NCBI GenBank assembly: GCA_026683435.1
Contig: GCA_026683435.1_4866.1
Direction: 5' to 3' (one strand)
DNA from: a phage
Length of the DNA: 64,000 nt
Of the stretch, positions 8,071 to 45,583 are shown in pieces (the first letter of the stretch is position 1; every line of letters starts with the position of its first letter). The notes beneath the pieces are model-generated. The model saw only the letters and a list, made by a program, of their open reading frames with translations, was not told where the DNA came from and did no database searches. Both the position numbers and the translations under genes were made by a program.

Positions 8071-8958
8071 ATGAAAAACGATTTGCATCTTGCGTATAAA
8101 ACCACATTCAACCACCCGCTGCATCTATCTTCCCCAGATTCAGTGCGTGCACACCTTGCTGACAAAGTCAGACTGATTGCACAGATTCCTGGTGAGTGGC
8201 CAAAGGTTCGTGGTCGCTTCTTGACCGACAAGAAGAACTACACCGTAGAAAATACGTTTAAGATCCGTGATATGGTTGCAGAGGCCATCGTTATCTTTAA
8301 CGGCGATGGTAACTCTCGTGGCGTGTTAGTCGACGGTAAGTATTTCTTCAGTGAAGGGATTTTGAACAACAGCGTCGATTTAGAACTGATGTTTACACCG
8401 TTTGACGAACTTGAAGCAAAACCGATGGCGCGCCGTTGGTGGAGTCCGGACTATCTGGGCTCGTTCCCTTACTACTTTGTACTGGTACCTGCCGATACGG
8501 AAACGTATTTCGACACCGAACCATACATCGATATCGAGGGGTATAAAGAACTCGGCATCACCCGTTTAGCGGACATGATGGCGTATAGCTATAAGTTCGT
8601 GTGGGATAAAAAGCGTTCTGTCTGGTATGCGCTGACTGACGATTTTGAAATCACCAAACGTATTCGTAAGCCGTGGATGCAACACCTGGTTCAAACCCGA
8701 TATGGGGATTACCCGGCGACAGAAGCGGACTTGAGTAAGCTGGTAAGCTTCCTCTTAACAAAGGTGGATTTAACGAAAGAAGAAGCAGAAGCTGTTTCTG
8801 AGATTCGTGGTCGTTCGGTAACGTTGGCCGATTTGAAACGTCTGAACGAAAGACACGCCGACCTGAACAAAATTTTAGCTGCCTATCACGACCCGATGTT
8901 ACTGGTGCCTGGCGCTAATGTAGACGAAGATCCTTTATTCGCCATTGATTATATTTAA
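8071..8958 (+). CDS. hypothetical protein (295 aa) in the rSAM cassette
   Basis: GGAG RBS. Co-oriented and tightly packed between the peptide genes and the rSAM genes. No motif recognised. Confidence 0.65.
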   Translation: MKNDLHLAYKTTFNHPLHLSSPDSVRAHLADKVRLIAQIPGEWPKVRGRFLTDKKNYTVENTFKIRDMVAEAIVIFNGDGNSRGVLVDGKYFFSEGILNNSVDLELMFTPFDELEAKPMARRWWSPDYLGSFPYYFVLVPADTETYFDTEPYIDIEGYKELGITRLADMMAYSYKFVWDKKRSVWYALTDDFEITKRIRKPWMQHLVQTRYGDYPATEADLSKLVSFLLTKVDLTKEEAEAVSEIRGRSVTLADLKRLNERHADLNKILAAYHDPMLLVPGANVDEDPLFAIDYI

Positions 8959-8980
8959 AAATATACTGGAGCAACCTGCA

Positions 8981-9895
8981 ATGACAGATCAAGTAGAATC
9001 CAGGATCTCGTCTGAACTGTACGACAAACCGTCAATTCTGTCGGTTGTCGCAACTTCTAAGTGTAACTTAGACTGTAGCTTCTGTGGAGGGGCTTATTAC
9101 ATGGATAGAGAAGATACTTCTCGTGAGTTTCAACGTGAAGAGATTCTCTCGATTTTAGAGAAGAATCCGGATATCGGTGAGATTCATTGGACGGGCGGTG
9201 AGCCGCTGTTAGCGCAGCGTAAGATTGAAGACTTCGTGAACGAGTTGAAGGAGTCTCATCCTAACCTCCGTCATCACATGTACACCAACGGTTTAAAGAT
9301 GCGTAAATCACATCTGCCGTTGCTGAAACAGTTCGACCTTATCTTTGTGTCCATTGACGGCTACAAGAAGTCGGAACGTCCGTTTATGAACTTTGTAAAC
9401 GGTGGTAATCACGAAGCGCTGGAAGTGCTGTACGAGCTGGACAACTATTACACCTGGGGTGTGATGACGCGTGACCAGTTAGGCGATAAACGCTGGTACG
9501 AAGATTTCATCGAGCTGCACCGAGCAATCTATCATTACCGTCCAGGTGGTGTGTCGTTGTTGTTTGATGCGATGATGCCGAAACCGTTATCGCCAGACCA
9601 CGTCATGAACTTCATGTACGGGTATTGGAAAATACTCGACAATATCGAACGCCTTAACATGCAGAACGATTCTGAATGTGGGCTTGCGATCAGTAAAATG
9701 TTCGATACCGAGTGCAACACGTGCAGTGAAGTGCTGTGGCTTAACGCCGACGGTACGCAGGAGCAAATTCAGAACGCCCCAGAGATATTGGAAGTCGGCT
9801 GTAATCGCCTGGCGCGTTCTATCGGCGTTGATGCGTATAACTACATCAACCGTGTAATTTCTGCTAAGCGTAAACGGGCGGCGAACAATGAGTAA
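8981..9895 (+). CDS. radical SAM enzyme (about 304 aa)
   Basis: CNLDCSFC (CX3CX2C) near the N-terminus, GGEPLL glycine motif, and C-terminal Cys cluster (C-x11-C-x2-C). ATG 8981 has a GGAG RBS; the ORF-track start 8945 is a TTG overlapping the previous gene. Confidence 0.8.
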   Translation: MTDQVESRISSELYDKPSILSVVATSKCNLDCSFCGGAYYMDREDTSREFQREEILSILEKNPDIGEIHWTGGEPLLAQRKIEDFVNELKESHPNLRHHMYTNGLKMRKSHLPLLKQFDLIFVSIDGYKKSERPFMNFVNGGNHEALEVLYELDNYYTWGVMTRDQLGDKRWYEDFIELHRAIYHYRPGGVSLLFDAMMPKPLSPDHVMNFMYGYWKILDNIERLNMQNDSECGLAISKMFDTECNTCSEVLWLNADGTQEQIQNAPEILEVGCNRLARSIGVDAYNYINRVISAKRKRAANNE

Positions 9896-11216
9896 TAGCG
9901 AACAGCAAATCCAGTACACACCACGCACGTATCAGGTTGTGACTAACCTGTCATGTAACCTGGACTGCGAATACTGCTACGAGCGTAAATATCCGCGTAA
10001 CAACAAAGTAGCAGACGTGATTGATTTTATCCACGCTTGTTTCGAGCGTGATAAAGATATCCCGAACGTTGAAGTCATCATCGATATCATCGGTGGTGAG
10101 CCGTTCATGCAGCCTAAACTTCTTTTGGCGGCCTTTGAAACCGCAGAGAAGTTATGCGCAGAACACAATCGCCCGTATATGTTCAGTATCTCCACGAACG
10201 GTACGCTTCTGGACCGTCCGCTGAACAAAGAAATTATCGAGCGCTGGAAAGACAAACTGTCTATTGGGGTCTCCATCGATGGTTTACCTGAAGTCCATGA
10301 CAAATATCGTATCTTTACCACGACGCGTGAAGGGTCGTACGAAGCTGCGGTACGCGGTTACAATTATCTGAAGAGTGTTGGCATCGCTGAGCTGGGCGTA
10401 AAGGCGACGTTTACGATCGATACATTGCCGCACTATGCCGCCAGCATGAAATCGTTAATTGACATGTCCGGCGGTGGTACCATCTCTGGTAACGTAACGT
10501 ACGAAGATATCCTGCCGCGCCATATGGCGTTGGATATCGCGAACCAGATGATGGACGTGATGGACTACTGGATTGAGAAGGGTCTGCACACCAACCCGCG
10601 TAACACGATTACACACATCATCCCGGATGGCCTGAACTTTATGGCAACTTGGGACCCGGATTGGCGTGACAAACTCTTACATGACGACTCTGTTCGTCTC
10701 GACCCAGAACGCCTGAAACCGTACTGCGGTACGTTGACGCACATGACCTGTCTCGGCTTTGATCGCAAGATTTACGGTTGTAACCGTTTCATGTCCACGG
10801 TAACTTCCCGCTCTGCTGTAGCAGAACTGGTCGGTCGTGAGTTTGTGAGCCTGGACGGTGGTAAGCTGTTAGAAGAGATTCAAACGCAGTACACCAACTA
10901 CCCAGAAACCTGTTTAGGGTGTCCGATGAAACACAGCTGCGGTAGCTGCGCAGCAGCATCGTACGAAAACGGTGAAGGTACACTGGAAGACCGTAAAGCG
11001 TATCATGCCGAGCGTCGTCAGTGTGGTTGGACTACTGCGAAGCTGATGGCGGCGGAATATTGGTATCAGAAAACTGGTACGACCCGCGCATCAGATTTGC
11101 ATGATAAATCCATGTGCTATTGTTCACGTTGTGTACGCCAACGTGCTGAAGCAGAAAAATTACAAAACGGAGCCCAGAATGAAGTCAATACTGATTCACA
11201 ATTTTACGAAGCGTAA
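9888..11216 (+). CDS. radical SAM enzyme with SPASM-type C-terminal domain (anSME-like RiPP maturase fold)
   Basis: CNLDCEYC (CX3CX2C), GGEPFM, STNGTLL and SIDG motifs, and C-terminal CLGCPMKHSCGSC plus further Cys. Start overlaps the stop of the previous rSAM gene (ATGAGTAA). Confidence 0.8.
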   Translation: MSNSEQQIQYTPRTYQVVTNLSCNLDCEYCYERKYPRNNKVADVIDFIHACFERDKDIPNVEVIIDIIGGEPFMQPKLLLAAFETAEKLCAEHNRPYMFSISTNGTLLDRPLNKEIIERWKDKLSIGVSIDGLPEVHDKYRIFTTTREGSYEAAVRGYNYLKSVGIAELGVKATFTIDTLPHYAASMKSLIDMSGGGTISGNVTYEDILPRHMALDIANQMMDVMDYWIEKGLHTNPRNTITHIIPDGLNFMATWDPDWRDKLLHDDSVRLDPERLKPYCGTLTHMTCLGFDRKIYGCNRFMSTVTSRSAVAELVGREFVSLDGGKLLEEIQTQYTNYPETCLGCPMKHSCGSCAAASYENGEGTLEDRKAYHAERRQCGWTTAKLMAAEYWYQKTGTTRASDLHDKSMCYCSRCVRQRAEAEKLQNGAQNEVNTDSQFYEA

Positions 11217-38477: not shown

Positions 38478-40637
38478 TTACTGATATATTTTGATTTGTG
38501 GGTAACTATAGCTATAGCTATCGCTATCAACATCCTGACCGACAAACAAAATGCCTGTGTTAGAAAACGCCGCGCTGCAATACAATGTTAGCCCGGCGGG
38601 GTTAGAAATCGTATTACCGTAGTAGGCGCTGTAGCGCATGTACTTACCGTCATTCTTCACAAACAGGCTGCCTAACGATCCAACCATTCCGAAGATCAAA
38701 CAAGCACCATCGGGAGAAACACAGACATTGCCGTTCGGATATCGAGTGGATGTTACACTATAATCAATTTCCGTGTAATCCAACTCACGTGTCGCCACCC
38801 AACCATCGGCGCGTTTTTCGAAGATGTTGTATTTGTGGGTTTCAAGGACGGATACCAGTATGACTGAAAAGTTCGAAGATGCTGCCACCTTCAACGTCGA
38901 GGCTTCTGCTAACCCTGGGATGTCTAGCTTAGCGGTTTCAACATAGAGTCCTTCTGAACCTTTAGTTACGATATGAACAGATTTTCCATTGTGCTCTGAA
39001 AAAGCAACGCTGGTGCCATCGGCGGTCATCGCAATACTGTCGTACGAACCACACAGAGCACCAGAATCGTCGAAGTCAAACGTGAGCGTTTCGTAATTTG
39101 AAAACCCATCACTTTTTTGGTAAACAGCTATTTCGCGCGTACCATTCCCAACGAACAGTGTCTCTCCGTCCGGGGTGAGTTTGACCAACTTACCGTTTAC
39201 ACCGGTGGCCGGGAGATTGGTAATTGCTGTTGGCGTCACTTTGCCCCACGGCATGTCGGCACTGTTGTCGTAAACCAGCACTGCGCCCTTCGTTGTTTCC
39301 CCAGTTATCGCGGAAGGAATCCCGACGACGAACAAATCGCCTGACTTGTTTATCGATACCGGACAACGCCCATCGGTTTCCGCATTTTCACCAGTATCAA
39401 AAGTTAGATCCATCAGAATGCTGGCATCGTGTCTATAGCCTGGGAAATCTTTTCTATATATAGAAATTGTAGTTGAACGCTTTGCAAGTGGAGTGGTAAT
39501 CAGTACATTTGCATCGCTACTACAATCCAATTCTGCACCCAACGAATAATTATTTTCCGAAGACACGTTCAACGACTGGAATTCATTCGATGGGTATACG
39601 TTTCGGCTTATCTTTATCCGATAAGGATCGGACCACTGTCCGACGGTGTCCTCACCACGATATCTGACGCGTAGCCAATAACTACTACCGTATTGAAGCA
39701 CGTTATCCGGCAGAGTTATCGTTGTAAGGTTTCGCATATCGAACAATGAAGAGAATGGTAGGTTGCTACTAGGACTAAAATCTAACGTATCGCCATAGTT
39801 ATAATAGAGTTTCCAATCTGTAGCAATATGCGTTTCCGTGCCTGAAGTTTCAAACGTCGATGTTTCTATCGTTAAACCTGACGGTCCGTTCACATCGGTT
39901 GGGGTTGGCGACACTATCGTCGGTTTTTGGATTGTGGTCTCTATTACCGAAAACATGGTTACTGACCAGTCACTATTAACCGTATCTGAGTGAAATTTAG
40001 CACGGGCGTAATACGTCTTGTTTCCTACCAGTGTGCCGGGTGGTAAAGTTAGAAATTTTTTAGCATCCTGAGATTCGAGCAATTGGTAAACCGTAGTGGA
40101 AAAATCTTCATTTTCAGACACTTCCCAACTCGTCGCTCTATGAGGTGTTGTTTGAAACGGCCTTGCAGTGAAGCCATTGAGGATAAAATCCAGATCACTA
40201 GCTGAACTAGAACCGTAGTACGGGGAAATCCATGTAGGCGCGTCCACTACATTAGAGACCACCTCAATTTCATAGGTTTTGGTGATGCCGTTAGCAGAAA
40301 CGGTCAGCGTAATAATTTGTCCTAACTGCCGAGGATCTTCGATAAACAACGTATAGTTTAAACCTCCATAATGCCTGATTATTGCTTCAGGGCACGTTAC
40401 CTGATAAACCGACGGTTCTTCATTACCGGCAATGTAAAAAAACGTTTCCCTGCCTAGAATGCATTTTTTTTCATCTCCGTCGGAAAAGATTACAGTGAAT
40501 GATGACTCTGCAGAAGCATCTGACAACGGTATCTTGTATTCGATTCCATCCTTACTAAATAAAACAACCCCACCCGTTTTATCCCCAGTAAATTCAGGCA
40601 GTTCGTGTAAACGTTTCTTTTTGACTACAGTTGCCAT
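38478..40637 (-). CDS. large hypothetical protein (719 aa)
   Basis: Long ORF. An FN3-like/beta-rich architecture is a guess from Ser/Thr/Gly-rich composition. Confidence 0.65.
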   Translation of the reverse strand: MATVVKKKRLHELPEFTGDKTGGVVLFSKDGIEYKIPLSDASAESSFTVIFSDGDEKKCILGRETFFYIAGNEEPSVYQVTCPEAIIRHYGGLNYTLFIEDPRQLGQIITLTVSANGITKTYEIEVVSNVVDAPTWISPYYGSSSASDLDFILNGFTARPFQTTPHRATSWEVSENEDFSTTVYQLLESQDAKKFLTLPPGTLVGNKTYYARAKFHSDTVNSDWSVTMFSVIETTIQKPTIVSPTPTDVNGPSGLTIETSTFETSGTETHIATDWKLYYNYGDTLDFSPSSNLPFSSLFDMRNLTTITLPDNVLQYGSSYWLRVRYRGEDTVGQWSDPYRIKISRNVYPSNEFQSLNVSSENNYSLGAELDCSSDANVLITTPLAKRSTTISIYRKDFPGYRHDASILMDLTFDTGENAETDGRCPVSINKSGDLFVVGIPSAITGETTKGAVLVYDNSADMPWGKVTPTAITNLPATGVNGKLVKLTPDGETLFVGNGTREIAVYQKSDGFSNYETLTFDFDDSGALCGSYDSIAMTADGTSVAFSEHNGKSVHIVTKGSEGLYVETAKLDIPGLAEASTLKVAASSNFSVILVSVLETHKYNIFEKRADGWVATRELDYTEIDYSVTSTRYPNGNVCVSPDGACLIFGMVGSLGSLFVKNDGKYMRYSAYYGNTISNPAGLTLYCSAAFSNTGILFVGQDVDSDSYSYSYPQIKIYQ

Positions 40638-41188
40638 TATACATCGTCTCCGTAGGTTAACACTGCATCATCACCGATGCATAAAACAGTTTCTTCATCC
40701 AGACTTGCCACAGCTTCTTTTTCATTAAACGCCGTGAATGTAAAGGTAGCCGTCCAAGCCGGTGAATCGTCACTCATCGCTGCAATCAATGGCTCGTTTG
40801 TTGGTGTAATAACCCCTGTCGAGATGTCTTCACGTGACAAGTTTAAACCGCATAACTGGTTTACAACTGTCGCTAAATCAGCATAGGTGTCGCCGGGAGC
40901 TACAGTAACCAGTATCGGTCCTTGCGGGTCGATAATCTTATTAGCGACTAGACGGTCGTAATAGACGGTAACCTTCTTGCCGTTAGGTTTACGTGCTTTC
41001 GCAATGTACGCTTGCGAGGTACGGGCACTTTCAACACCTAAGTCGATTGGCCCTACTCCGCTTATCACAATCTCGTCAGGCGATAATGACAAGCCGTTAT
41101 CGTGATTAATCAACGCCACGACAAGCGCTTTCGACGAGAGTGTTAGGTCTGGCTGATAGCGGTCTGCCATTAACGCCTCCAGAAACAA
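40637..41188 (-). CDS. short member of the fibre-associated paralogue family (183 aa)
   Basis: N-module 'VTVYYDRLVANKII'. Located outside the main array. Confidence 0.65.
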   Translation of the reverse strand: MFLEALMADRYQPDLTLSSKALVVALINHDNGLSLSPDEIVISGVGPIDLGVESARTSQAYIAKARKPNGKKVTVYYDRLVANKIIDPQGPILVTVAPGDTYADLATVVNQLCGLNLSREDISTGVITPTNEPLIAAMSDDSPAWTATFTFTAFNEKEAVASLDEETVLCIGDDAVLTYGDDV

Positions 41189-41224
41189 AAAAATAAGCTA
41201 CCACACATATGATCGTGTGGTAGC
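41184..41224 (-). terminator. intrinsic terminator
   Basis: Stem CTACCACAC/GTGTGGTAG, then T-run on the minus transcript. Confidence 0.5.
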
Positions 41225-41238
41225 CTACTCGTACGCTG

Positions 41239-41634
41239 TTAGTGCAGTGTAGCACTGTGCACAACAGTTAACCCGCGACGTTTGATCTCATCCGCGATGG
41301 ATTGCAATAGCTTATCGTAACCCACCTTTACAAATTCAGGTAAGCCACGGTCAACCATCTCCATCTCGGTGATTTCTTCACGGAAAACTTGACAACAGCC
41401 TTCTAAATAACGTTTAGCTTCTGTCACGTCATCGACATACCGCGCATAACTCAGGGCGATCGCGTAACCTTCTGCAATAAACGCATACTTCATGAAGACT
41501 TCAGGGTCGAGTTCTTCAACTGCCACGTCTAGACGTGAAGCGGTCTGACGTACAGAGTTGCGTAATGATTCAGAAAACAGTGTAGTCGTAACCATATCCT
41601 GATTAGGAACGGTTTTAGGCATAATCAATTTCAC
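41239..41634 (-). CDS. hypothetical protein (131 aa)
   Basis: ORF in the co-directional block. Confidence 0.55.
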   Translation of the reverse strand: MKLIMPKTVPNQDMVTTTLFSESLRNSVRQTASRLDVAVEELDPEVFMKYAFIAEGYAIALSYARYVDDVTEAKRYLEGCCQVFREEITEMEMVDRGLPEFVKVGYDKLLQSIADEIKRRGLTVVHSATLH

Positions 41635-41645
41635 GAGGACTCTCC

Positions 41646-42029
41646 TTACGATAACTCGCCCATGTAAATTACTTCATAACCGAACCACTCACCGATTTCA
41701 ATAAGGTAAGAAACTAGCAAGTGGCGATGACAGAATTTCCCCGGTGGGCAATAGCACATTAGTACGACCTCGCCCTGGCGGAGAATCTCTATCAACTTAT
41801 CAGTGTCTTCATCAAACAACCGACTAAGTTTCTGCAGGTAGCGTTTGGTATACGCAGCTTCTGCGTCGGGGCCTTTGTCAGACTTCTTGTAGTCCATCAG
41901 AAAGTCCCAGTCGGGTGCCAAATATTTCAGCCCCGACTTAACCGTTATATCCAGCTTTGGCAAATTCCGTTTTTCAGCTATCCGCCACTTCGCCAGTTGG
42001 AGCGTCCACAGCTTTACTTGCTTTGGCAT
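41646..42029 (-). CDS. DUF488-like protein (127 aa)
   Basis: 'VVLMCYCPPGKFCHRHL' resembles the DUF488 signature. Overlaps the upstream gene by 56 nt. Confidence 0.45.
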   Translation of the reverse strand: MPKQVKLWTLQLAKWRIAEKRNLPKLDITVKSGLKYLAPDWDFLMDYKKSDKGPDAEAAYTKRYLQKLSRLFDEDTDKLIEILRQGEVVLMCYCPPGKFCHRHLLVSYLIEIGEWFGYEVIYMGELS

Positions 42030-42981
42030 TTTTCGCTATCTCTTTTTCTTTCTCCTGAAGCGCTTTAAAATGTGGCGCATACGCGCACCACTCTTCCGCG
42101 GTAAACGATGTGATACATAACCGGTTAGTATCTTCACTTACCGTAAAGGTCGTGTGGTTTCTTTCCGGGTCCTTAAAGTTAGCAAAAGCCGGTACGCCCA
42201 AACCCATAGCAGAAATAGCACTACCGAGAGCAGAACACCATACCCGTCTGTAAGCATCGTTGATTTTAATCTCCCATCCCACAGACGGTGTAATACCAAG
42301 ACTACGATAATTCTGCGACTTTGCCGACGGATGGGCATAAACGATGAGCACGTTATTCTCACGGTCTATCGCGAATTCGTAGTTGTTGTTGTTACTGACC
42401 TGTACCAACCTACGAATATCTTCCGGCAACTCCTGCCACATTTCCAGTTTCTCTTTATCCCACGCAGGTGTTAGAAGCGGTGGAACGCGACCGGCATGAT
42501 CTTGGAAATACATCAATTCGCTATAGAGGTTCTTTAAGCGAGCGTACTCGTCTAATGTCCAATCTCCCAGCTCTAGACTATTCTCCAACGCATCTAGCTT
42601 ATTCCAACCAACAACTGCATAGGCGTGGTGCTGTTTGCGCGTAATACCACACATCAGTTTAGCGAGACCGTTAACAACATTGCCCTGCTGAACCAGAGGC
42701 GACCAGCCGTTAGCATATCCAGCGGTAACGACAGGCTGGAAGTTCTCTTCCCCGAGCACCGCCCATGTAACATGTTCGGTTTGTGCATGGTGTCTATCCA
42801 TCAACCGTTCAACAATGGCCACGCTACAAAGAATTTCCATGAAGTTCGCGTTACCTCCATTCCACATGGAGAAATATGCAGGACGGACATGTCGCGCTTC
42901 ATTGGCCGGTGCTTTGCACAACAGCTGATACATTATCCAGGTGGAATCCAACCCTGCTGAAAACGAAACAAGCTTTGTCAT
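41974..42981 (-). CDS. PP-loop superfamily ATPase-like protein (QueC/PAPS-reductase-like N-terminus) with unknown C-terminal extension
   Basis: N-terminal 'MTKLVSFSAGLDSTW' is an SGGxDS-like PP-loop motif. Start shares ATGA with the stop of the upstream gene. Confidence 0.5.
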   Translation of the reverse strand: MTKLVSFSAGLDSTWIMYQLLCKAPANEARHVRPAYFSMWNGGNANFMEILCSVAIVERLMDRHHAQTEHVTWAVLGEENFQPVVTAGYANGWSPLVQQGNVVNGLAKLMCGITRKQHHAYAVVGWNKLDALENSLELGDWTLDEYARLKNLYSELMYFQDHAGRVPPLLTPAWDKEKLEMWQELPEDIRRLVQVSNNNNYEFAIDRENNVLIVYAHPSAKSQNYRSLGITPSVGWEIKINDAYRRVWCSALGSAISAMGLGVPAFANFKDPERNHTTFTVSEDTNRLCITSFTAEEWCAYAPHFKALQEKEKEIAKNAKASKAVDAPTGEVADS

Positions 42982-43463
42982 TGTTTCACCGTATGTAGAA
43001 ATTGATAACGTGGGGTTTCTTCTGCCACAACATCGAAAGATGGGATGCAAACAATCTTCCCATATCCATCGAGTTCTATACGTGGAGAAATCGTGATGGT
43101 GCCTGCACGCATCACTTCAATCGCTAACGCTTTGAGTGGGCCGTGTGGTGTGAATTCACCGCGGAGTTGAAAGTAACCATCGACAACGCCATAGCAGACG
43201 TTCGATACATAACCGCAAACGCGTACGAGTTCAATACAACGTATCCGATCAATGGCGGCCTTTACTTCCCCGAACGATTGACACGGTTTAATCACAGGCG
43301 CGTCGAATTCACAGAAAACGTGTCCGCGACGTAATGCTAACGATATCGTTTCGTCGGGACGGGCCGAGTCTTTAAATTCGTCGCACGGTATAGACAGTAT
43401 CAGTCCACTCGCGGATGCCACGGTTTGTGCGGGTATTTCCTTAACCTCGGTTTGTAGTTTCAT
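42978..43463 (-). CDS. hypothetical protein (161 aa)
   Basis: ORF translationally coupled to the PP-loop gene. Confidence 0.55.
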   Translation of the reverse strand: MKLQTEVKEIPAQTVASASGLILSIPCDEFKDSARPDETISLALRRGHVFCEFDAPVIKPCQSFGEVKAAIDRIRCIELVRVCGYVSNVCYGVVDGYFQLRGEFTPHGPLKALAIEVMRAGTITISPRIELDGYGKIVCIPSFDVVAEETPRYQFLHTVKQ

Positions 43464-43553
43464 TTATTCACTCGATAATTAATGGGGTTAAAATCAAATC
43501 CATGTAACCTAGGGTTAATAGCGCCACTATCTCAATCGGCGTGAGGTTTTCCA

Positions 43554-43763
43554 TTATTTTTCCTCTTTCAATATCTCAGCAACCGCTTTGCGACACGCGT
43601 TCACAGCGTCAGGATAAGTGCTATTGTTCGGGTCTACTCGATCAATACACATTCTGAACGTGCTGGTTGCGGTCTCTCGACGTTCTGCAGTGCGGGTACT
43701 GGTACTGACGGCGATATAAATACAGAACAACACAGCAGCTGCGATCGGCCAACGTAGATTCAT
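43554..43763 (-). CDS. small membrane protein (69 aa)
   Basis: Hydrophobic N-terminal helix (WPIAAAVLFCIYIAV). Start overlaps the stop of the upstream gene. Confidence 0.5.
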   Translation of the reverse strand: MNLRWPIAAAVLFCIYIAVSTSTRTAERRETATSTFRMCIDRVDPNNSTYPDAVNACRKAVAEILKEEK

Positions 43764-44461
43764 CAGTAATCCCCTGTTGCCCCTATCGCAGTCGCTACTT
43801 TACCGACGACCTCGTCAACCGGAAGTACCACCTCGTCTTTCTTGCTCACAATCTCTGGTACTTCTTTGACATGTTCAACGGTCACGTCAAACTTCCGAGT
43901 ATAACCAACAAGTAACTTTGCCATATCTGCACGACTAACGAACTGTTGTTCTTCCGACAGATGTAACGACGTATCAAGTAGTCCAGAATGCATGAAGTTT
44001 TCAATGAGTTGGTCTTCTTCCTCTTTGAAGTCGTACCGCTCGTTCGGGGCGGCCACAAATGCATAACCGAAATACTTCCCCTCTTCCTGTTCAGGGCGTA
44101 ACGATTTAACTAACTCCTCAGCGTGTTCACAGAAGTCCGCCAAAGTATAATCGTCAAGTGTGGCAACTGCGGTTTCTGTTACAATTTCACCGGTGTCGAG
44201 TTCAGTGAGGTGCATCACCCAAAGATGCCATGGTCGCGGTTGGTCGAACAGCCCACCGACTAACATATCTGTGGCGATAGCACGAATGCGAGGACTTGCC
44301 GTAAAGTGAAAACCACGGCCCGCGTACGGCCCGAGGCGACGAATCGAACTGCCGATAAACGTGATACGATTCAGAGCGTTTTCAGCGACGGTGTGTGCCG
44401 TACGTTCTGTGGCAACTTTCGGGTTATACTTTTTGTTACGGGGTTTCTTTTGCTTAGCCAT
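43763..44461 (-). CDS. hypothetical protein (about 232 aa)
   Basis: Internal ATG (MAKQKKPRNKK) chosen because the ORF-track start overlaps the upstream gene by 86 nt. Confidence 0.5.
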   Translation of the reverse strand: MAKQKKPRNKKYNPKVATERTAHTVAENALNRITFIGSSIRRLGPYAGRGFHFTASPRIRAIATDMLVGGLFDQPRPWHLWVMHLTELDTGEIVTETAVATLDDYTLADFCEHAEELVKSLRPEQEEGKYFGYAFVAAPNERYDFKEEEDQLIENFMHSGLLDTSLHLSEEQQFVSRADMAKLLVGYTRKFDVTVEHVKEVPEIVSKKDEVVLPVDEVVGKVATAIGATGDY

Positions 44462-44504
44462 GTTCTGATTCTCTTTGTGGGTTACATTAAATGTGGCGGT
44501 GATG

Positions 44505-45062
44505 TTAAAAATAGTCTTTCTTATTTTCGCTACGCGGGAACTCAGCGAAGGGGACGGTTCCGTTTTCATCGAGCTTTGCAACCAGCTCACTGAATTTCAT
44601 GAACGGTACAAAACGGTTATTGCCGGGGAACACCGAACAGATTTTCTCAATGCGCTCAATCGTCCAGTTCCCGTTTTCAGGATCAAGGTCAGGGTTTAAT
44701 GCGAGGTGCTCAATAAAGGTCGACAGCAGCGACGATTCTCTATCTTCGGGAATCACCACTACGCGATGATGACTGTGGGTTGAAACCAAACGATAGTTCG
44801 GCCCCGCTAACTTGACGTCTAAGATTTCACCCCCTGCTCGAATCAACGTACCGGCGTAAGTGATTTCTTCATGACGCAGGTTATCCTTACCCGTGTTCAG
44901 TACGTCCGTTAACATCCGTACGTTTTCCGTTGGGAACCACCAACCGTGTATGGTGAAGTGTTCTTCTGGGTTACTGGGCATGGGTAGGTTTAAGCCAACG
45001 TGGTTCGTGTTGACGTAAATCTGGTCGTCGATAATAACGCCTGAGATATAAACGTTATTCAT
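44505..45062 (-). CDS. hypothetical protein (185 aa)
   Basis: ORF in the co-directional block. Confidence 0.55.
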   Translation of the reverse strand: MNNVYISGVIIDDQIYVNTNHVGLNLPMPSNPEEHFTIHGWWFPTENVRMLTDVLNTGKDNLRHEEITYAGTLIRAGGEILDVKLAGPNYRLVSTHSHHRVVVIPEDRESSLLSTFIEHLALNPDLDPENGNWTIERIEKICSVFPGNNRFVPFMKFSELVAKLDENGTVPFAEFPRSENKKDYF

Positions 45063-45583
45063 TTACGCAAATCCTCTCTGTAAACCACGTCGCATTTACG
45101 ACTGGTCATGGGGTCAATGTACGATACCAACTGAACGATGTTCTTCGGCTCCATCCCGCAAGCCCAACCACAGATTGCTAAATCCCCTCCGCTACCAAAC
45201 CCAATAGGTGCACGCAAGTCCAGCTCATCAACCATCAGTATTTTGTTGGGTTCTGGCATGTTGGTGTTCGGGTCTTCCAACGACATCATGGAGTTATGCA
45301 ATTTAAAGGATTTGGTGCGGGTCATTATCAGCAACGTATCGAATGCAATGAACTGGTTGATAAATGCTTCCGCTGCTTCGCGTGCTTTACGCTTGCCAAA
45401 TACGAAAGCGTAGACCGCCTTGTCGAGTTTTACACGTTGTTCGGTAGTTGGGTGGCTGGAACCAAAGAAATACGCTATACGGCCTTTTAAGACCTGTATT
45501 TTCGTATCATCAACAACCATTCCATTCAGCAACACTGCGCGGTCACCAACGAGGTAGTCTTGAGTGAATAATACCGTGGTCAC
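45059..45583 (-). CDS. hypothetical protein (174 aa)
   Basis: AAGGAGG RBS with a GTG start. Confidence 0.55.
   Translation of the reverse strand: MTTVLFTQDYLVGDRAVLLNGMVVDDTKIQVLKGRIAYFFGSSHPTTEQRVKLDKAVYAFVFGKRKAREAAEAFINQFIAFDTLLIMTRTKSFKLHNSMMSLEDPNTNMPEPNKILMVDELDLRAPIGFGSGGDLAICGWACGMEPKNIVQLVSYIDPMTSRKCDVVYREDLRK

What the first reader, a model, noticed from the sequence alone, without database searches (positions are those of the whole stretch)
41646..43463. PP-loop (QueC-like) ATPase with long C-terminal extension, coupled to neighbours and overlapping a DUF488 gene
Seen: the N-terminus MTKLVSFSAGLDSTW fits the SGGxDS PP-loop motif of QueC, PAPS-reductase and tRNA-thiolase type enzymes, but the protein is about 335 aa with an unrecognised C-terminal half. 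It is ATGA-coupled to the upstream 161-aa ORF and overlaps the downstream DUF488-like gene by 56 nt. Established: QueC-like enzymes act in 7-deazaguanine pathways and related enzymes occur in some defence systems. Inference: a nucleotide or RNA/DNA-modifying or adenylating activity of unknown target; no QueD/QueE/FolE or transglycosylase partner is visible here.
Basis: partly seen in the sequence, partly recalled or inferred. Interest (0 to 1): 0.5.

Follow-up and report, generated by a model that had tools for sequence, protein, structure and literature searches.

The report
Zinc-less QueC-like enzyme in jumbo phage
The gene encodes a real but uncharacterised ATP-using enzyme, a stripped-down relative of the queuosine-pathway enzyme QueC found only in giant "jumbo" phages; it usually sits beside a small phosphatase-like partner gene, and what it modifies is still unknown.

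Summary
Window 41974-42981 (-) encodes a 335-aa protein starting MTKLVSFSAGLDSTW. Its start overlaps the upstream stop as ATGA. Its 3' end overlaps a DUF488 gene by 56 nt.

The window is an SPN3US-like Salmonella/E. coli jumbo phage. The three genes are the homologues of SPN3US gp117, gp119 and gp120. gp117 is a diverged paralogue of the prohead protease.

The PP-loop reading is supported:
- The family profile aligns to E. coli QueC over 163 columns (hhalign probability 92%).

It is not a canonical QueC:
- The four-cysteine zinc motif is absent.
- The YxQxHxxE, VPxRN and YPDC motifs are not kept.
- SPN3US annotation names no FolE, QueD, QueE or transglycosylase.

The family is rare: 48 cluster representatives among 1.84 billion proteins. 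Every relative traced to a named record is a large phage, and nearly all are annotated "hypothetical".

The DUF488-N3a partner has a RapZ-C/phosphatase-like fold with an invariant CxC..CHR motif. It is adjacent or nearby in the SPN3US-like, Erwinia-phage and related metagenomic loci examined.

My best reading is an ATP-dependent adenylating ligase with a new, unknown substrate. This is a new variant of a known kind, of moderate interest.

The parts
41974..42981 (-). 335-aa zinc-less QueC-like PP-loop ATP pyrophosphatase, the homologue of SPN3US gp119 (phrog_8825, unknown function). Residues 1 to about 190 form the Rossmann-like PP-loop domain. Residues about 191-294 form a family-specific beta/alpha module containing the invariant K221. 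Residues 295-325 form a long helix. Residues 326-335 are a low-confidence tail ending ..PTGEVADS.
41646..42029 (-). 127-aa DUF488-N3a protein, the homologue of SPN3US gp120. It has a RapZ-C / rhodanese-phosphatase-like fold. C92, C94, C100, H101 and R102 are invariant (motif CYCPxGKFCHRH). It overlaps the PP-loop gene by 56 nt.
42978..43463 (-). 161-aa homologue of SPN3US gp117, a diverged and shortened paralogue of the S80 prohead protease gp245. Its stop overlaps the PP-loop gene's start as ATGA.
   Evidence: phrog_7478 'head maturation protease' E 8e-48. Pfam Peptidase_S80 only 15.2 bits (cut-off 23.4). Literature: PMC5694885 section 17. The true protease is annotated elsewhere in SPN3US, at 220808-221611.
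41239..41634 (-). 131-aa protein of unknown function, the homologue of SPN3US gp121 (phrog_17719). It is the last gene before the terminator-like hairpin, so it probably lies in the same transcription unit.
41191..41230 (-). Terminator-like hairpin with a 17-pair stem followed by TTTTTGTTT. It probably marks the 3' end of the gp117-gp119-gp120-gp121 transcription unit.
   Evidence: The sequence is visible.

Best explanation
The 335-aa protein is a catalytically competent PP-loop ATP pyrophosphatase derived from the QueC lineage.

Shown: it has the SxGxDS pyrophosphate-binding loop on a Rossmann-like alpha/beta domain. Its nearest sequence and structure relatives are QueC and Cap9.

Inferred mechanism: like its relatives, it binds ATP and transfers AMP to a carboxylate or carbonyl oxygen of its substrate, releasing PPi. 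The acyl-adenylate is then resolved by a nitrogen nucleophile, forming a C-N bond (amidoligase chemistry).

Inferred substrate: it has lost QueC's zinc site and its 7-carboxy-7-deazaguanine-contacting motifs. In their place it has its own invariant residues (E49, Q98-Q99, G125-W126, D130, P172, W174, K178, K221) and a family-specific C-terminal module. The substrate is therefore probably not the QueC substrate. I favour a small nucleobase- or nucleotide-like molecule. I do not favour a polynucleotide, because the protein is acidic and shows no recognisable RNA- or DNA-binding domain.

Inferred partner: in SPN3US-like and Erwinia-type jumbo phages the gene is tightly linked to the downstream DUF488-N3a gene, by overlap in the SPN3US-like and Erwinia loci and by direct abutment in L011. 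That product has a RapZ-C / phosphatase-like fold with an invariant Cys/His/Arg pocket. It probably binds or processes a phosphate-bearing part of the same substrate or product. The adjacency to the protease paralogue gp117 looks like inherited gene order rather than a functional link.

For: Sequence:
- The family profile against E. coli QueC gives probability 92% and E 5.5e-7 over query residues 1-182. QueC's TPLMWIDKAETW pairs with TPAWDKEKLEMW, and the E of QueC's YxQxHxxE motif pairs with E49.
- 15 of 46 family members weakly hit Pfam QueC and 10 of 46 hit the TilS-type PP-loop family.
- The profile search against PDB puts TilS on top, at the PP-loop.

Signs of activity. G10 and S13 are invariant across 46 sequences that go down to 15% identity to the window protein. 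D12 is D or E.

Amidoligase rather than sulfurtransferase. No cysteine column is conserved in the family; the best column has Cys in 11 of 46 sequences.

Partner:
- DUF488-N3a overlaps, abuts or lies close to the gene in L001-L006, L010 and L011. In L011 the PP-loop protein is only 26% identical to the window protein. In L007-L009 DUF488-N3a lies 2.5-2.8 kb away.
- The gene overlap is also present in Erwinia phage loci L005 and L006.
- The fold of gp120 is RapZ-C / PTP-like.

Evolutionary gradient. The QueC-like protein of phage HPP-Temi keeps C(x)8CxxCxxC, whereas SPN3US, Miami and AerS_266 family members have lost it.
Against: - No substrate, product or activity is shown. Everything beyond the fold and motif is inference.
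- DUF488-N3a occurs in 290 phage records, including phiKZ-like and RAY-like phages in which no PP-loop family member lies within 5 kb of DUF488. In pEa_SNUABM_37 the two genes are about 116 kb apart. The partner therefore does not depend on the PP-loop enzyme, and the link could be conserved gene order.
- The distant family members examined (L012-L016, Miami, AerS_266) show no DUF488 nearby, although some of those contigs are short.
- The model is poorly defined at residues 89-92 and 132-140, which lie next to the putative substrate site.
- Net charge is a weak argument against a nucleic-acid substrate.
Confidence: 0.5

Rival explanations
1. It is a genuine QueC (7-cyano-7-deazaguanine synthase). 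It would make preQ0 for 7-deazaguanine modification of phage DNA or of tRNA.
Against: - There is no Pfam QueC hit for the window protein.
- The zinc motif C(x)8CxxCxxC is absent and no cysteine is conserved.
- Of the catalytic motifs defined in PMC13329287, YxQxHxxE keeps only its E, VPxRN reads VQQGN, and YPDC is absent.
- The SPN3US genome annotation names no FolE, QueD, QueE, TGT or DpdA.
- The window's radical-SAM genes score best against SPASM-type peptide maturases, with QueE a weaker hit.
Confidence: 0.04
2. It is a Cap9/QatC-type protein-modifying ligase. It would attach a nucleobase carboxylate, such as host-made CDG, to a protein amino group. Alternatively it would consume or divert CDG to disarm CDG-dependent defences (type IV CBASS, QatABCD).
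Against: - Cap9 and QatC keep a zinc site, and Cap9 keeps the ancestral catalytic core. This protein keeps neither.
- No neighbouring product begins Met-Gly. The neighbours start MPKQ, MKLQ, MKLI and MNLR.
- There is no CD-NTase, Cap10 or QatA/B/D homologue nearby, and no PADLOC hit.
Confidence: 0.12
3. It is a ThiI/MnmA-style thiolation enzyme. gp119 would adenylate a base carbonyl, and gp120, a rhodanese-superfamily protein with invariant cysteines, would deliver persulfide sulfur.
Against: - Known PP-loop sulfurtransferases carry catalytic or Fe-S cysteines in the PP-loop protein. This family has no conserved cysteine.
- gp120's best matches are RapZ-C and dual-specificity phosphatases, not rhodaneses.
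- No cysteine desulfurase or ubiquitin-like sulfur carrier is annotated in SPN3US.
- hhalign to ThiI covers only 52 columns.
Confidence: 0.08
4. It is a TilS-like RNA- or DNA-modifying enzyme acting directly on a polynucleotide. It would adenylate a base in tRNA, mRNA or DNA and add an amine. The C-terminal module would be the nucleic-acid-binding part, and DUF488 would process an end or a phosphate.
For: - TilS is the top sequence hit in PDB, with 52% identity over the PP-loop stretch.
- Like TilS, the protein has an extra C-terminal module.
- In other phages the family members sit among nucleic-acid and nucleotide metabolism genes: thymidylate kinase, Dam-type methylase, RNase HI, ligase, DprA-like and dCTP deaminase.
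- From memory, Burroughs & Aravind 2023 (NAR Genom Bioinform lqad029) predict DNA-end or RNA-end processing for the RapZ-C-DUF488-DUF4326 clade. I could not read that paper here.
Against: - The protein is acidic overall (pI 5.8) and the C-terminal module is near neutral (pI 8.0).
- The C-terminal module matches nothing outside the family in BFVD.
- The TilS similarity is limited to 21 columns.
Confidence: 0.18
5. It is a non-catalytic derivative, either a nucleotide-binding regulator or sponge of the USP type or a structural or assembly factor linked to the protease paralogue.
Against: - The PP-motif Gly and Ser are invariant and the Asp is D or E across the whole family.
- SxGxDS with any residue at position 2 is the accepted motif.
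- gp119 is not mentioned in the SPN3US head-proteome paper searched here.
- gp117 adjacency is not conserved in L010 or L011.
Confidence: 0.06

Closest known systems
QueC (7-cyano-7-deazaguanine synthase, Pfam PF06508)
   Different: - It has no C(x)8CxxCxxC zinc site.
- VPxRN reads VQQGN, YPDC is not kept, and the Q and H of YxQxHxxE are not kept.
- It is about 100 residues longer, with a family-specific C-terminal module.
- It scores below Pfam's threshold.
- The phage has no deazaguanine pathway genes.
Cap9 (type IV CBASS) and QatC (QatABCD): QueC-family protein deazaguanylases
   Different: Cap9 and QatC retain a zinc site and are encoded in defence operons beside their protein substrates. 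This protein is phage-encoded, lacks zinc ligands, has no defence-operon partners and has no neighbour with an N-terminal glycine.
Phage 'QueC-like queuosine biosynthesis' proteins (e.g. Pseudomonas phages HPP-Temi and PA1C, Ralstonia RSF1/RSL2, Vi01-like phages)
   Same: They are phage-borne PP-loop proteins found mostly in large and jumbo phages. The family HMM detects them (E 2e-14 for HPP-Temi) and so does Foldseek.
   Different: HPP-Temi, the one checked, is shorter (245 aa) and keeps the four-cysteine zinc motif. Their function is also untested as far as I could find.
TilS and ThiI (tRNA-modifying PP-loop enzymes)
   Different: Similarity ends after 21 columns (TilS) or 52 columns (ThiI). 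No THUMP, rhodanese or TilS substrate-binding domain is detected, and there are no catalytic cysteines.
[quoted passage not shown]
   Different: No DUF488 protein has a demonstrated activity that I could find. The predicted roles, phosphate or sugar-phosphate processing on NAD-derived molecules or nucleic-acid ends, come from PMC9503650 and from my memory of Burroughs & Aravind 2023.

Membership tests
PP-loop ATP pyrophosphatase superfamily | SxGxDS(T/S) pyrophosphate-binding motif immediately after the first beta-strand | tested here: met
   S8-A-G-L-D-S-T14 follows strand 2-6. The family consensus is SGGLDST, with G10 and S13 invariant in 46 sequences. It is the only such motif in the window.
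PP-loop ATP pyrophosphatase superfamily | Rossmann-like alpha/beta fold superposable on solved PP-loop enzymes | tested here: met
PP-loop ATP pyrophosphatase superfamily | ATP to AMP + PPi chemistry through an adenylated substrate | not testable with these tools
   This needs a biochemical assay.
Canonical QueC (PF06508 cluster 1) | Score above the Pfam PF06508 gathering threshold | tested here: not met
   The window protein has no Pfam hit at E of 1 or below. Among relatives, 15 of 46 hit QueC weakly, with a best E of 2.4e-6.
Canonical QueC (PF06508 cluster 1) | C(x)8CxxCxxC zinc-binding motif near the C-terminus | tested here: not met
   The window protein's cysteines are at 22, 52, 111, 249, 289 and 299. 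None is conserved and there is no CxxC.
Canonical QueC (PF06508 cluster 1) | Catalytic motifs YxQxHxxE, VPxRN and YPDC (PMC13329287) | tested here: not met
   In the hhalign and MAFFT alignments only the final E (E49) and the V and N of VPxRN (VQQGN) are kept. YPDC has no counterpart.
Canonical QueC (PF06508 cluster 1) | Genomic company of FolE, QueD, QueE and a TGT/DpdA transglycosylase | tested here: not met
   None is named in the whole SPN3US RefSeq annotation. The window's radical-SAM genes score best against SPASM-type peptide maturases, with QueE a weaker hit. This test is by annotation only; no profile search of every ORF was run.
Cap9 / QatC protein deazaguanylases | Encoded in a CBASS type IV or qatABCD operon next to a substrate protein with an N-terminal Gly, and retaining a zinc site | tested here: not met
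   There is no PADLOC hit. The neighbours are a protease paralogue, DUF488 and unknowns. Neighbour N-termini are MP, MK, MK and MN. There are no zinc ligands. Structural similarity alone is met.
ThiI / MnmA / TtuA-type sulfurtransferases | Conserved catalytic or Fe-S-binding cysteines in the PP-loop protein | tested here: not met
   No cysteine column is conserved. The best column has Cys in 11 of 46 sequences.
DUF488-N3a (partner gp120) | Pfam PF22751 above its cut-off, with the conserved Cys/His/Arg active-site motif | tested here: met
   It scores 46.1 bits against a cut-off of 27. C92, C94, C100, H101 and R102 are invariant in 20 sequences. The fold is RapZ-C / PTP-like.
Peptidase S80 prohead protease (upstream gp117 homologue) | Pfam PF20034 above its cut-off, full-length (about 230-280 aa) with a His/Ser/Asp triad | tested here: not met
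   It scores 15.2 bits against a cut-off of 23.4, covering only profile positions 46-102 of 229. It is 161 aa long. The literature aligns the Ser and Asp but not the His (PMC5694885). It is a paralogue, not the working prohead protease, which is annotated at SPN3US 220808-221611.

The most novel reading that the evidence does not exclude
A jumbo-phage-specific, zinc-less offshoot of QueC has acquired a new substrate. Together with the RapZ-C-like DUF488-N3a protein it would carry out a so far undescribed ATP-dependent modification. This could be a new nucleobase or nucleotide derivative, or a nucleobase-protein conjugate, made during infection. It might serve as a counter-measure to host immunity, for instance by diverting the CDG that type IV CBASS and Qat need.
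Probability: 0.15. Interest if true: 0.7.

Novelty: new variant of a known kind. Interest (0 to 1): 0.4.

Why it matters
QueC-family enzymes were long seen as single-purpose. They have recently been shown to perform quite different chemistry, namely protein deazaguanylation in CBASS type IV and Qat. This phage family is a further derivative of that scaffold. It has lost the zinc site and the known substrate-binding motifs but keeps the ATP-activating loop, so it probably acts on something new.

It belongs to giant phages of the phiKZ/SPN3US type, most of whose genes are unassigned. It is linked to DUF488-N3a, a gene found in 290 phage records including phiKZ-like phages, whose function is also unknown. 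Solving one would probably help to solve the other.

On present evidence this is a sound annotation upgrade, from 'hypothetical protein' to 'QueC-like PP-loop ATP pyrophosphatase, zinc-less clade'. It is also a defined biochemical target. It is not a surprise to specialists.

Tried and rejected
- Pfam, NCBIfam and PADLOC scans of the protein found nothing. A single-sequence PDB search gave only chance-level hits.
- The search for related loci with the wide alignment A2 failed because it has no conserved 7-10 column stretch. With A1 it returned only 4 viral loci.
- The afdb50 fold library was unavailable, so the C-terminal module could not be searched on its own. BFVD matched it only to family members.
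- I looked for a hidden PP-loop gene beside DUF488 in a phiKZ-like phage (SL2) and in Erwinia phage RAY. None was found with the family HMM or by motif.
- I looked for gene fusions of the PP-loop protein with DUF488. None was found among 46 family members.
- I tested whether the two radical-SAM genes in the window could be QueE. Their best hits are SPASM-type peptide maturases, all far below cut-off, and QueE is only a weaker hit for one of them.
- I asked whether the conserved C-terminal tail (..GEVA..) marks the whole family. It is restricted to the SPN3US/Erwinia clade.
- I rejected the idea that gp117 is a functional partner. It is adjacent only in SPN3US-like loci and in L007/L008. Genuine S80 proteases lie about 3 kb upstream of the PP-loop gene in L015 and of DUF488 in RAY, which points to inherited gene order.
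- Literature searches for DUF488 with PP-loop, and for jumbo phage with PP-loop, found nothing. Burroughs & Aravind 2023 on the rhodanese-phosphatase superfamily could not be retrieved. What I say about it is from memory.
Full report
**What is there**

The window is an SPN3US-like jumbo phage of the genus Seoulvirus. Bases 41000-44600 match Salmonella phages SPLA5c, SEGD1 and SPN3US at 96-98% identity. The protein is 99.7% identical to that of Escherichia phage vB_EcoM_EC001.

All genes discussed here lie on the minus strand. The finding's coordinates span three of them.
- 42978..43463 encodes a 161-aa protein.
- 41974..42981 encodes the 335-aa protein that begins MTKLVSFSAGLDSTW.
- 41646..42029 encodes a 127-aa protein.

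They correspond to SPN3US locus tags 0117, 0119 and 0120. The ATGA stop/start overlap and the 56-nt overlap with the downstream gene are both present. RefSeq annotates the same arrangement in SPN3US.

A fourth gene (41239..41634, the gp121 homologue) follows. After it comes a strong terminator-like hairpin at 41230..41191. The four genes therefore probably end one transcription unit.

**Is the motif more than chance?**

- S.G.DS[TS] occurs once among the 287 six-frame ORFs of the window, at this site.
- GLDSTW is invariant in 12 homologues that go down to 33% identity.
- In a 46-member alignment reaching 15% identity the consensus is AFSGGLDSTY, with G10 and S13 invariant.

**Fold and family of the 335-aa protein**

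Pfam, NCBIfam and PADLOC give nothing for the protein itself. PHROGs places it in phrog_8825, of unknown function.

Sequence comparison points the same way.
- The family profile aligns to E. coli QueC with hhalign probability 92% and E 5.5e-7. The alignment covers 163 columns and query residues 1-182.
- The alignments to TilS and ThiI stop after 21 and 52 columns.
- Of 46 family members, 15 weakly hit Pfam QueC and 10 hit the TilS-type PP-loop family.

**Why it is not a QueC**

A 2026 study (PMC13329287) defines canonical QueC by five motifs: SGGxDS, YxQxHxxE, VPxRN, YPDC and the C(x)8CxxCxxC zinc motif.

| QueC feature | In this protein |
|---|---|
| SGGxDS | Kept, as SAGLDS |
| YxQxHxxE | Only the final Glu survives (E49) |
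| VPxRN | Reads VQQGN |
| YPDC | No counterpart |
| C(x)8CxxCxxC zinc motif | Absent; no cysteine column is conserved in the family |

The family has its own conserved set instead: E49, Q98-Q99, G125-W126, D130, P172, W174, K178, K221 and G229. By the model's secondary structure, most of these residues sit at or just after strand ends or at helix starts, where Rossmann-type folds usually build the active site. K221 and G229 lie in the module that follows the Rossmann domain (the active-site placement is inference).

The conserved core reaches about residue 235. Only residues from about 240 to 335 vary.

An intermediate form exists. The 245-aa 'QueC-like' protein of Pseudomonas phage HPP-Temi is detected by the family HMM (E 2e-14) and still has the four-cysteine motif. 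The SPN3US, Miami and AerS_266 proteins have lost it.

The SPN3US genome, as annotated in RefSeq, names no FolE, QueD, QueE, TGT or DpdA. The two radical-SAM genes in the window (8945-9895 and 9888-11216) score best against SPASM-type peptide maturases. QueE is only a weaker hit for one of them, and all scores are far below cut-off.

**Distribution**

The family is rare. It has 17 clusters in the 5.8-billion-protein search. It has 48 representatives at E of 1e-3 or below among 1.84 billion cluster representatives.

Named carriers are SPN3US-like Salmonella/Escherichia/Proteus phages, many Erwinia jumbo phages, Pseudomonas phage EL, Klebsiella phage Miami and Aeromonas phages. Almost all copies are annotated 'hypothetical'. 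Foldseek against viral models matches the full length only to family members. After those come 'QueC'-labelled proteins of other large phages such as RSF1, Noxifer and YC.

**Neighbours**

The downstream 127-aa protein:
- It matches Pfam DUF488-N3a at 46.1 bits against a cut-off of 27.
- Its model has pLDDT 96.
- This agrees with the placement of DUF4326 in the rhodanese-phosphatase superfamily (PMC9503650). It also agrees with my recollection of a RapZ-C-DUF488-DUF4326 clade in Burroughs & Aravind 2023, which I could not retrieve.
- C92, C94, C100, H101 and R102 (CYCPxGKFCHRH) are invariant in 20 sequences.

DUF488-N3a overlaps or directly abuts the PP-loop gene in several settings:
- in SPN3US-like phages;
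- in Erwinia phages ChrisDB and Caitlin (PP-loop proteins 32-34% identical to the window protein);
- in metagenomic contigs L010 and L011 (PP-loop proteins 54% and 26% identical).

It lies 2.5-2.8 kb downstream, past an AAA+ gene, in L007-L009.

Other observations limit the link.
- DUF488-N3a is far more widespread, with 290 phage records including phiKZ-like phages, PhiPA3, RAY and 2050HW.
- It stands without any PP-loop family gene within 5 kb in SL2 and RAY.
- It is about 116 kb from the PP-loop gene in pEa_SNUABM_37.

The link is therefore real but clade-limited, and DUF488 does not depend on the PP-loop enzyme.

The upstream 161-aa protein is SPN3US gp117. PMC5694885 describes it as an extremely diverged, C-terminally shortened paralogue of the prohead protease gp245. 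Here it scores below Pfam's S80 cut-off. Its adjacency is not conserved in L010 or L011. Genuine S80 proteases lie about 3 kb upstream of the PP-loop gene in L015 and of DUF488 in RAY. I read the adjacency as inherited gene order.

**How it most likely works**

Shown: the PP-loop motif, the PP-loop fold, QueC as the nearest relative, and the loss of QueC's zinc site and substrate motifs.

Inferred:
- The enzyme binds ATP and adenylates a carboxylate or carbonyl oxygen of its substrate, releasing PPi.
- An amine then displaces AMP. This is the chemistry of QueC, Cap9, TilS, NAD synthetase and GMP synthetase.
- Because no cysteine is conserved, sulfur insertion of the ThiI, MnmA or TtuA type is unlikely.
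- The protein is acidic (pI 5.8) and no nucleic-acid-binding domain is recognisable. I therefore lean towards a small nucleobase- or nucleotide-like substrate. This is a weak argument, and a TilS-like action on RNA or DNA remains the strongest rival.
- The partner's phosphatase-like pocket suggests that a phosphate-bearing group is part of the substrate or product.

**Comparison and novelty**

The protein works like a QueC-family adenylating ligase, but it fails four of the five sequence criteria for QueC membership and the genomic-context criterion. It also lacks the operon context and zinc site of Cap9 and QatC. It is best filed as a zinc-less, C-terminally elaborated clade of the PP-loop superfamily that is specific to jumbo phages. 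That makes it a new variant of a known kind.

The outcome is a solid annotation and a defined biochemical target. The fold and the general chemistry are unsurprising, and the substrate remains unknown.

Noticed in passing
window 8945-9895 (+) and 9888-11216 (+): Two overlapping radical-SAM genes (316 and 442 aa). Their best NCBIfam hits are SPASM-type peptide maturases (CXXX-repeat, PapB, HxsB/HxsC), all far below cut-off. This may be a peptide-modifying pair in a jumbo phage. No precursor peptide was looked for.
   Followed up: partly
window 42978-42981; SPN3US locus L001 7992-8324: SPN3US has a 110-aa gene (gp118, phrog_10627, unknown) between gp117 and gp119. It is absent from the window and from phage SPLA5c, where gp117 and gp119 are joined by ATGA. 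This argues against the suggestion in PMC5694885 that gp117 and gp118 are two halves of one former protease gene.
   Followed up: partly
window 41191-41230 (-): A strong terminator-like hairpin (17-pair stem followed by a T-run) lies immediately after the gp121 homologue.
   Followed up: no
window 45059-45583 (-): A 174-aa protein (phrog_23394) has a weak match to an HslV-family peptidase PHROG (E 2e-9). SPN3US RefSeq also annotates an HslV-family peptidase at 1186-1677.
   Followed up: no
L005 8242-8637 (Erwinia phage ChrisDB): A stand-alone NLig-Ia NAD+-binding domain protein (Pfam E 4e-31) lies two genes downstream of the DUF488 gene. PMC9503650 proposes such solo domains as NAD+ sensors.
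   Followed up: partly
L007 7426-9168; L008 7425-9143 and L009 1498-3216: In these metagenomic relatives a roughly 570-580-aa AAA+ ATPase (phrog_4339) and a 163-194-aa unknown protein lie between the PP-loop gene and DUF488-N3a.
   Followed up: partly
L026 4992-5729 (Pseudomonas phage HPP-Temi): A 245-aa 'QueC-like' protein keeps the C(x)8CxxCxxC zinc motif and sits beside DprA-like, dCTP deaminase and NAD-dependent ligase genes. It is an intermediate between QueC and the zinc-less family.
   Followed up: partly
Salmonella phage records LR535904-LR535917 (SPFM6, 7, 8, 9, 12, 15, 20): The gp119 and gp120 homologues match only as 2-7 broken pieces with low coverage. The corresponding proteins (P0006-P0011) align poorly. 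This looks like frameshift-laden assemblies rather than biology.
   Followed up: no
window 40637-41188 (-): The gp122 homologue matches DUF7941 and virion-structural PHROGs. PMC5694885 tentatively places SPN3US gp122 in head paralogue family B, although it was not detected in virions.
   Followed up: no
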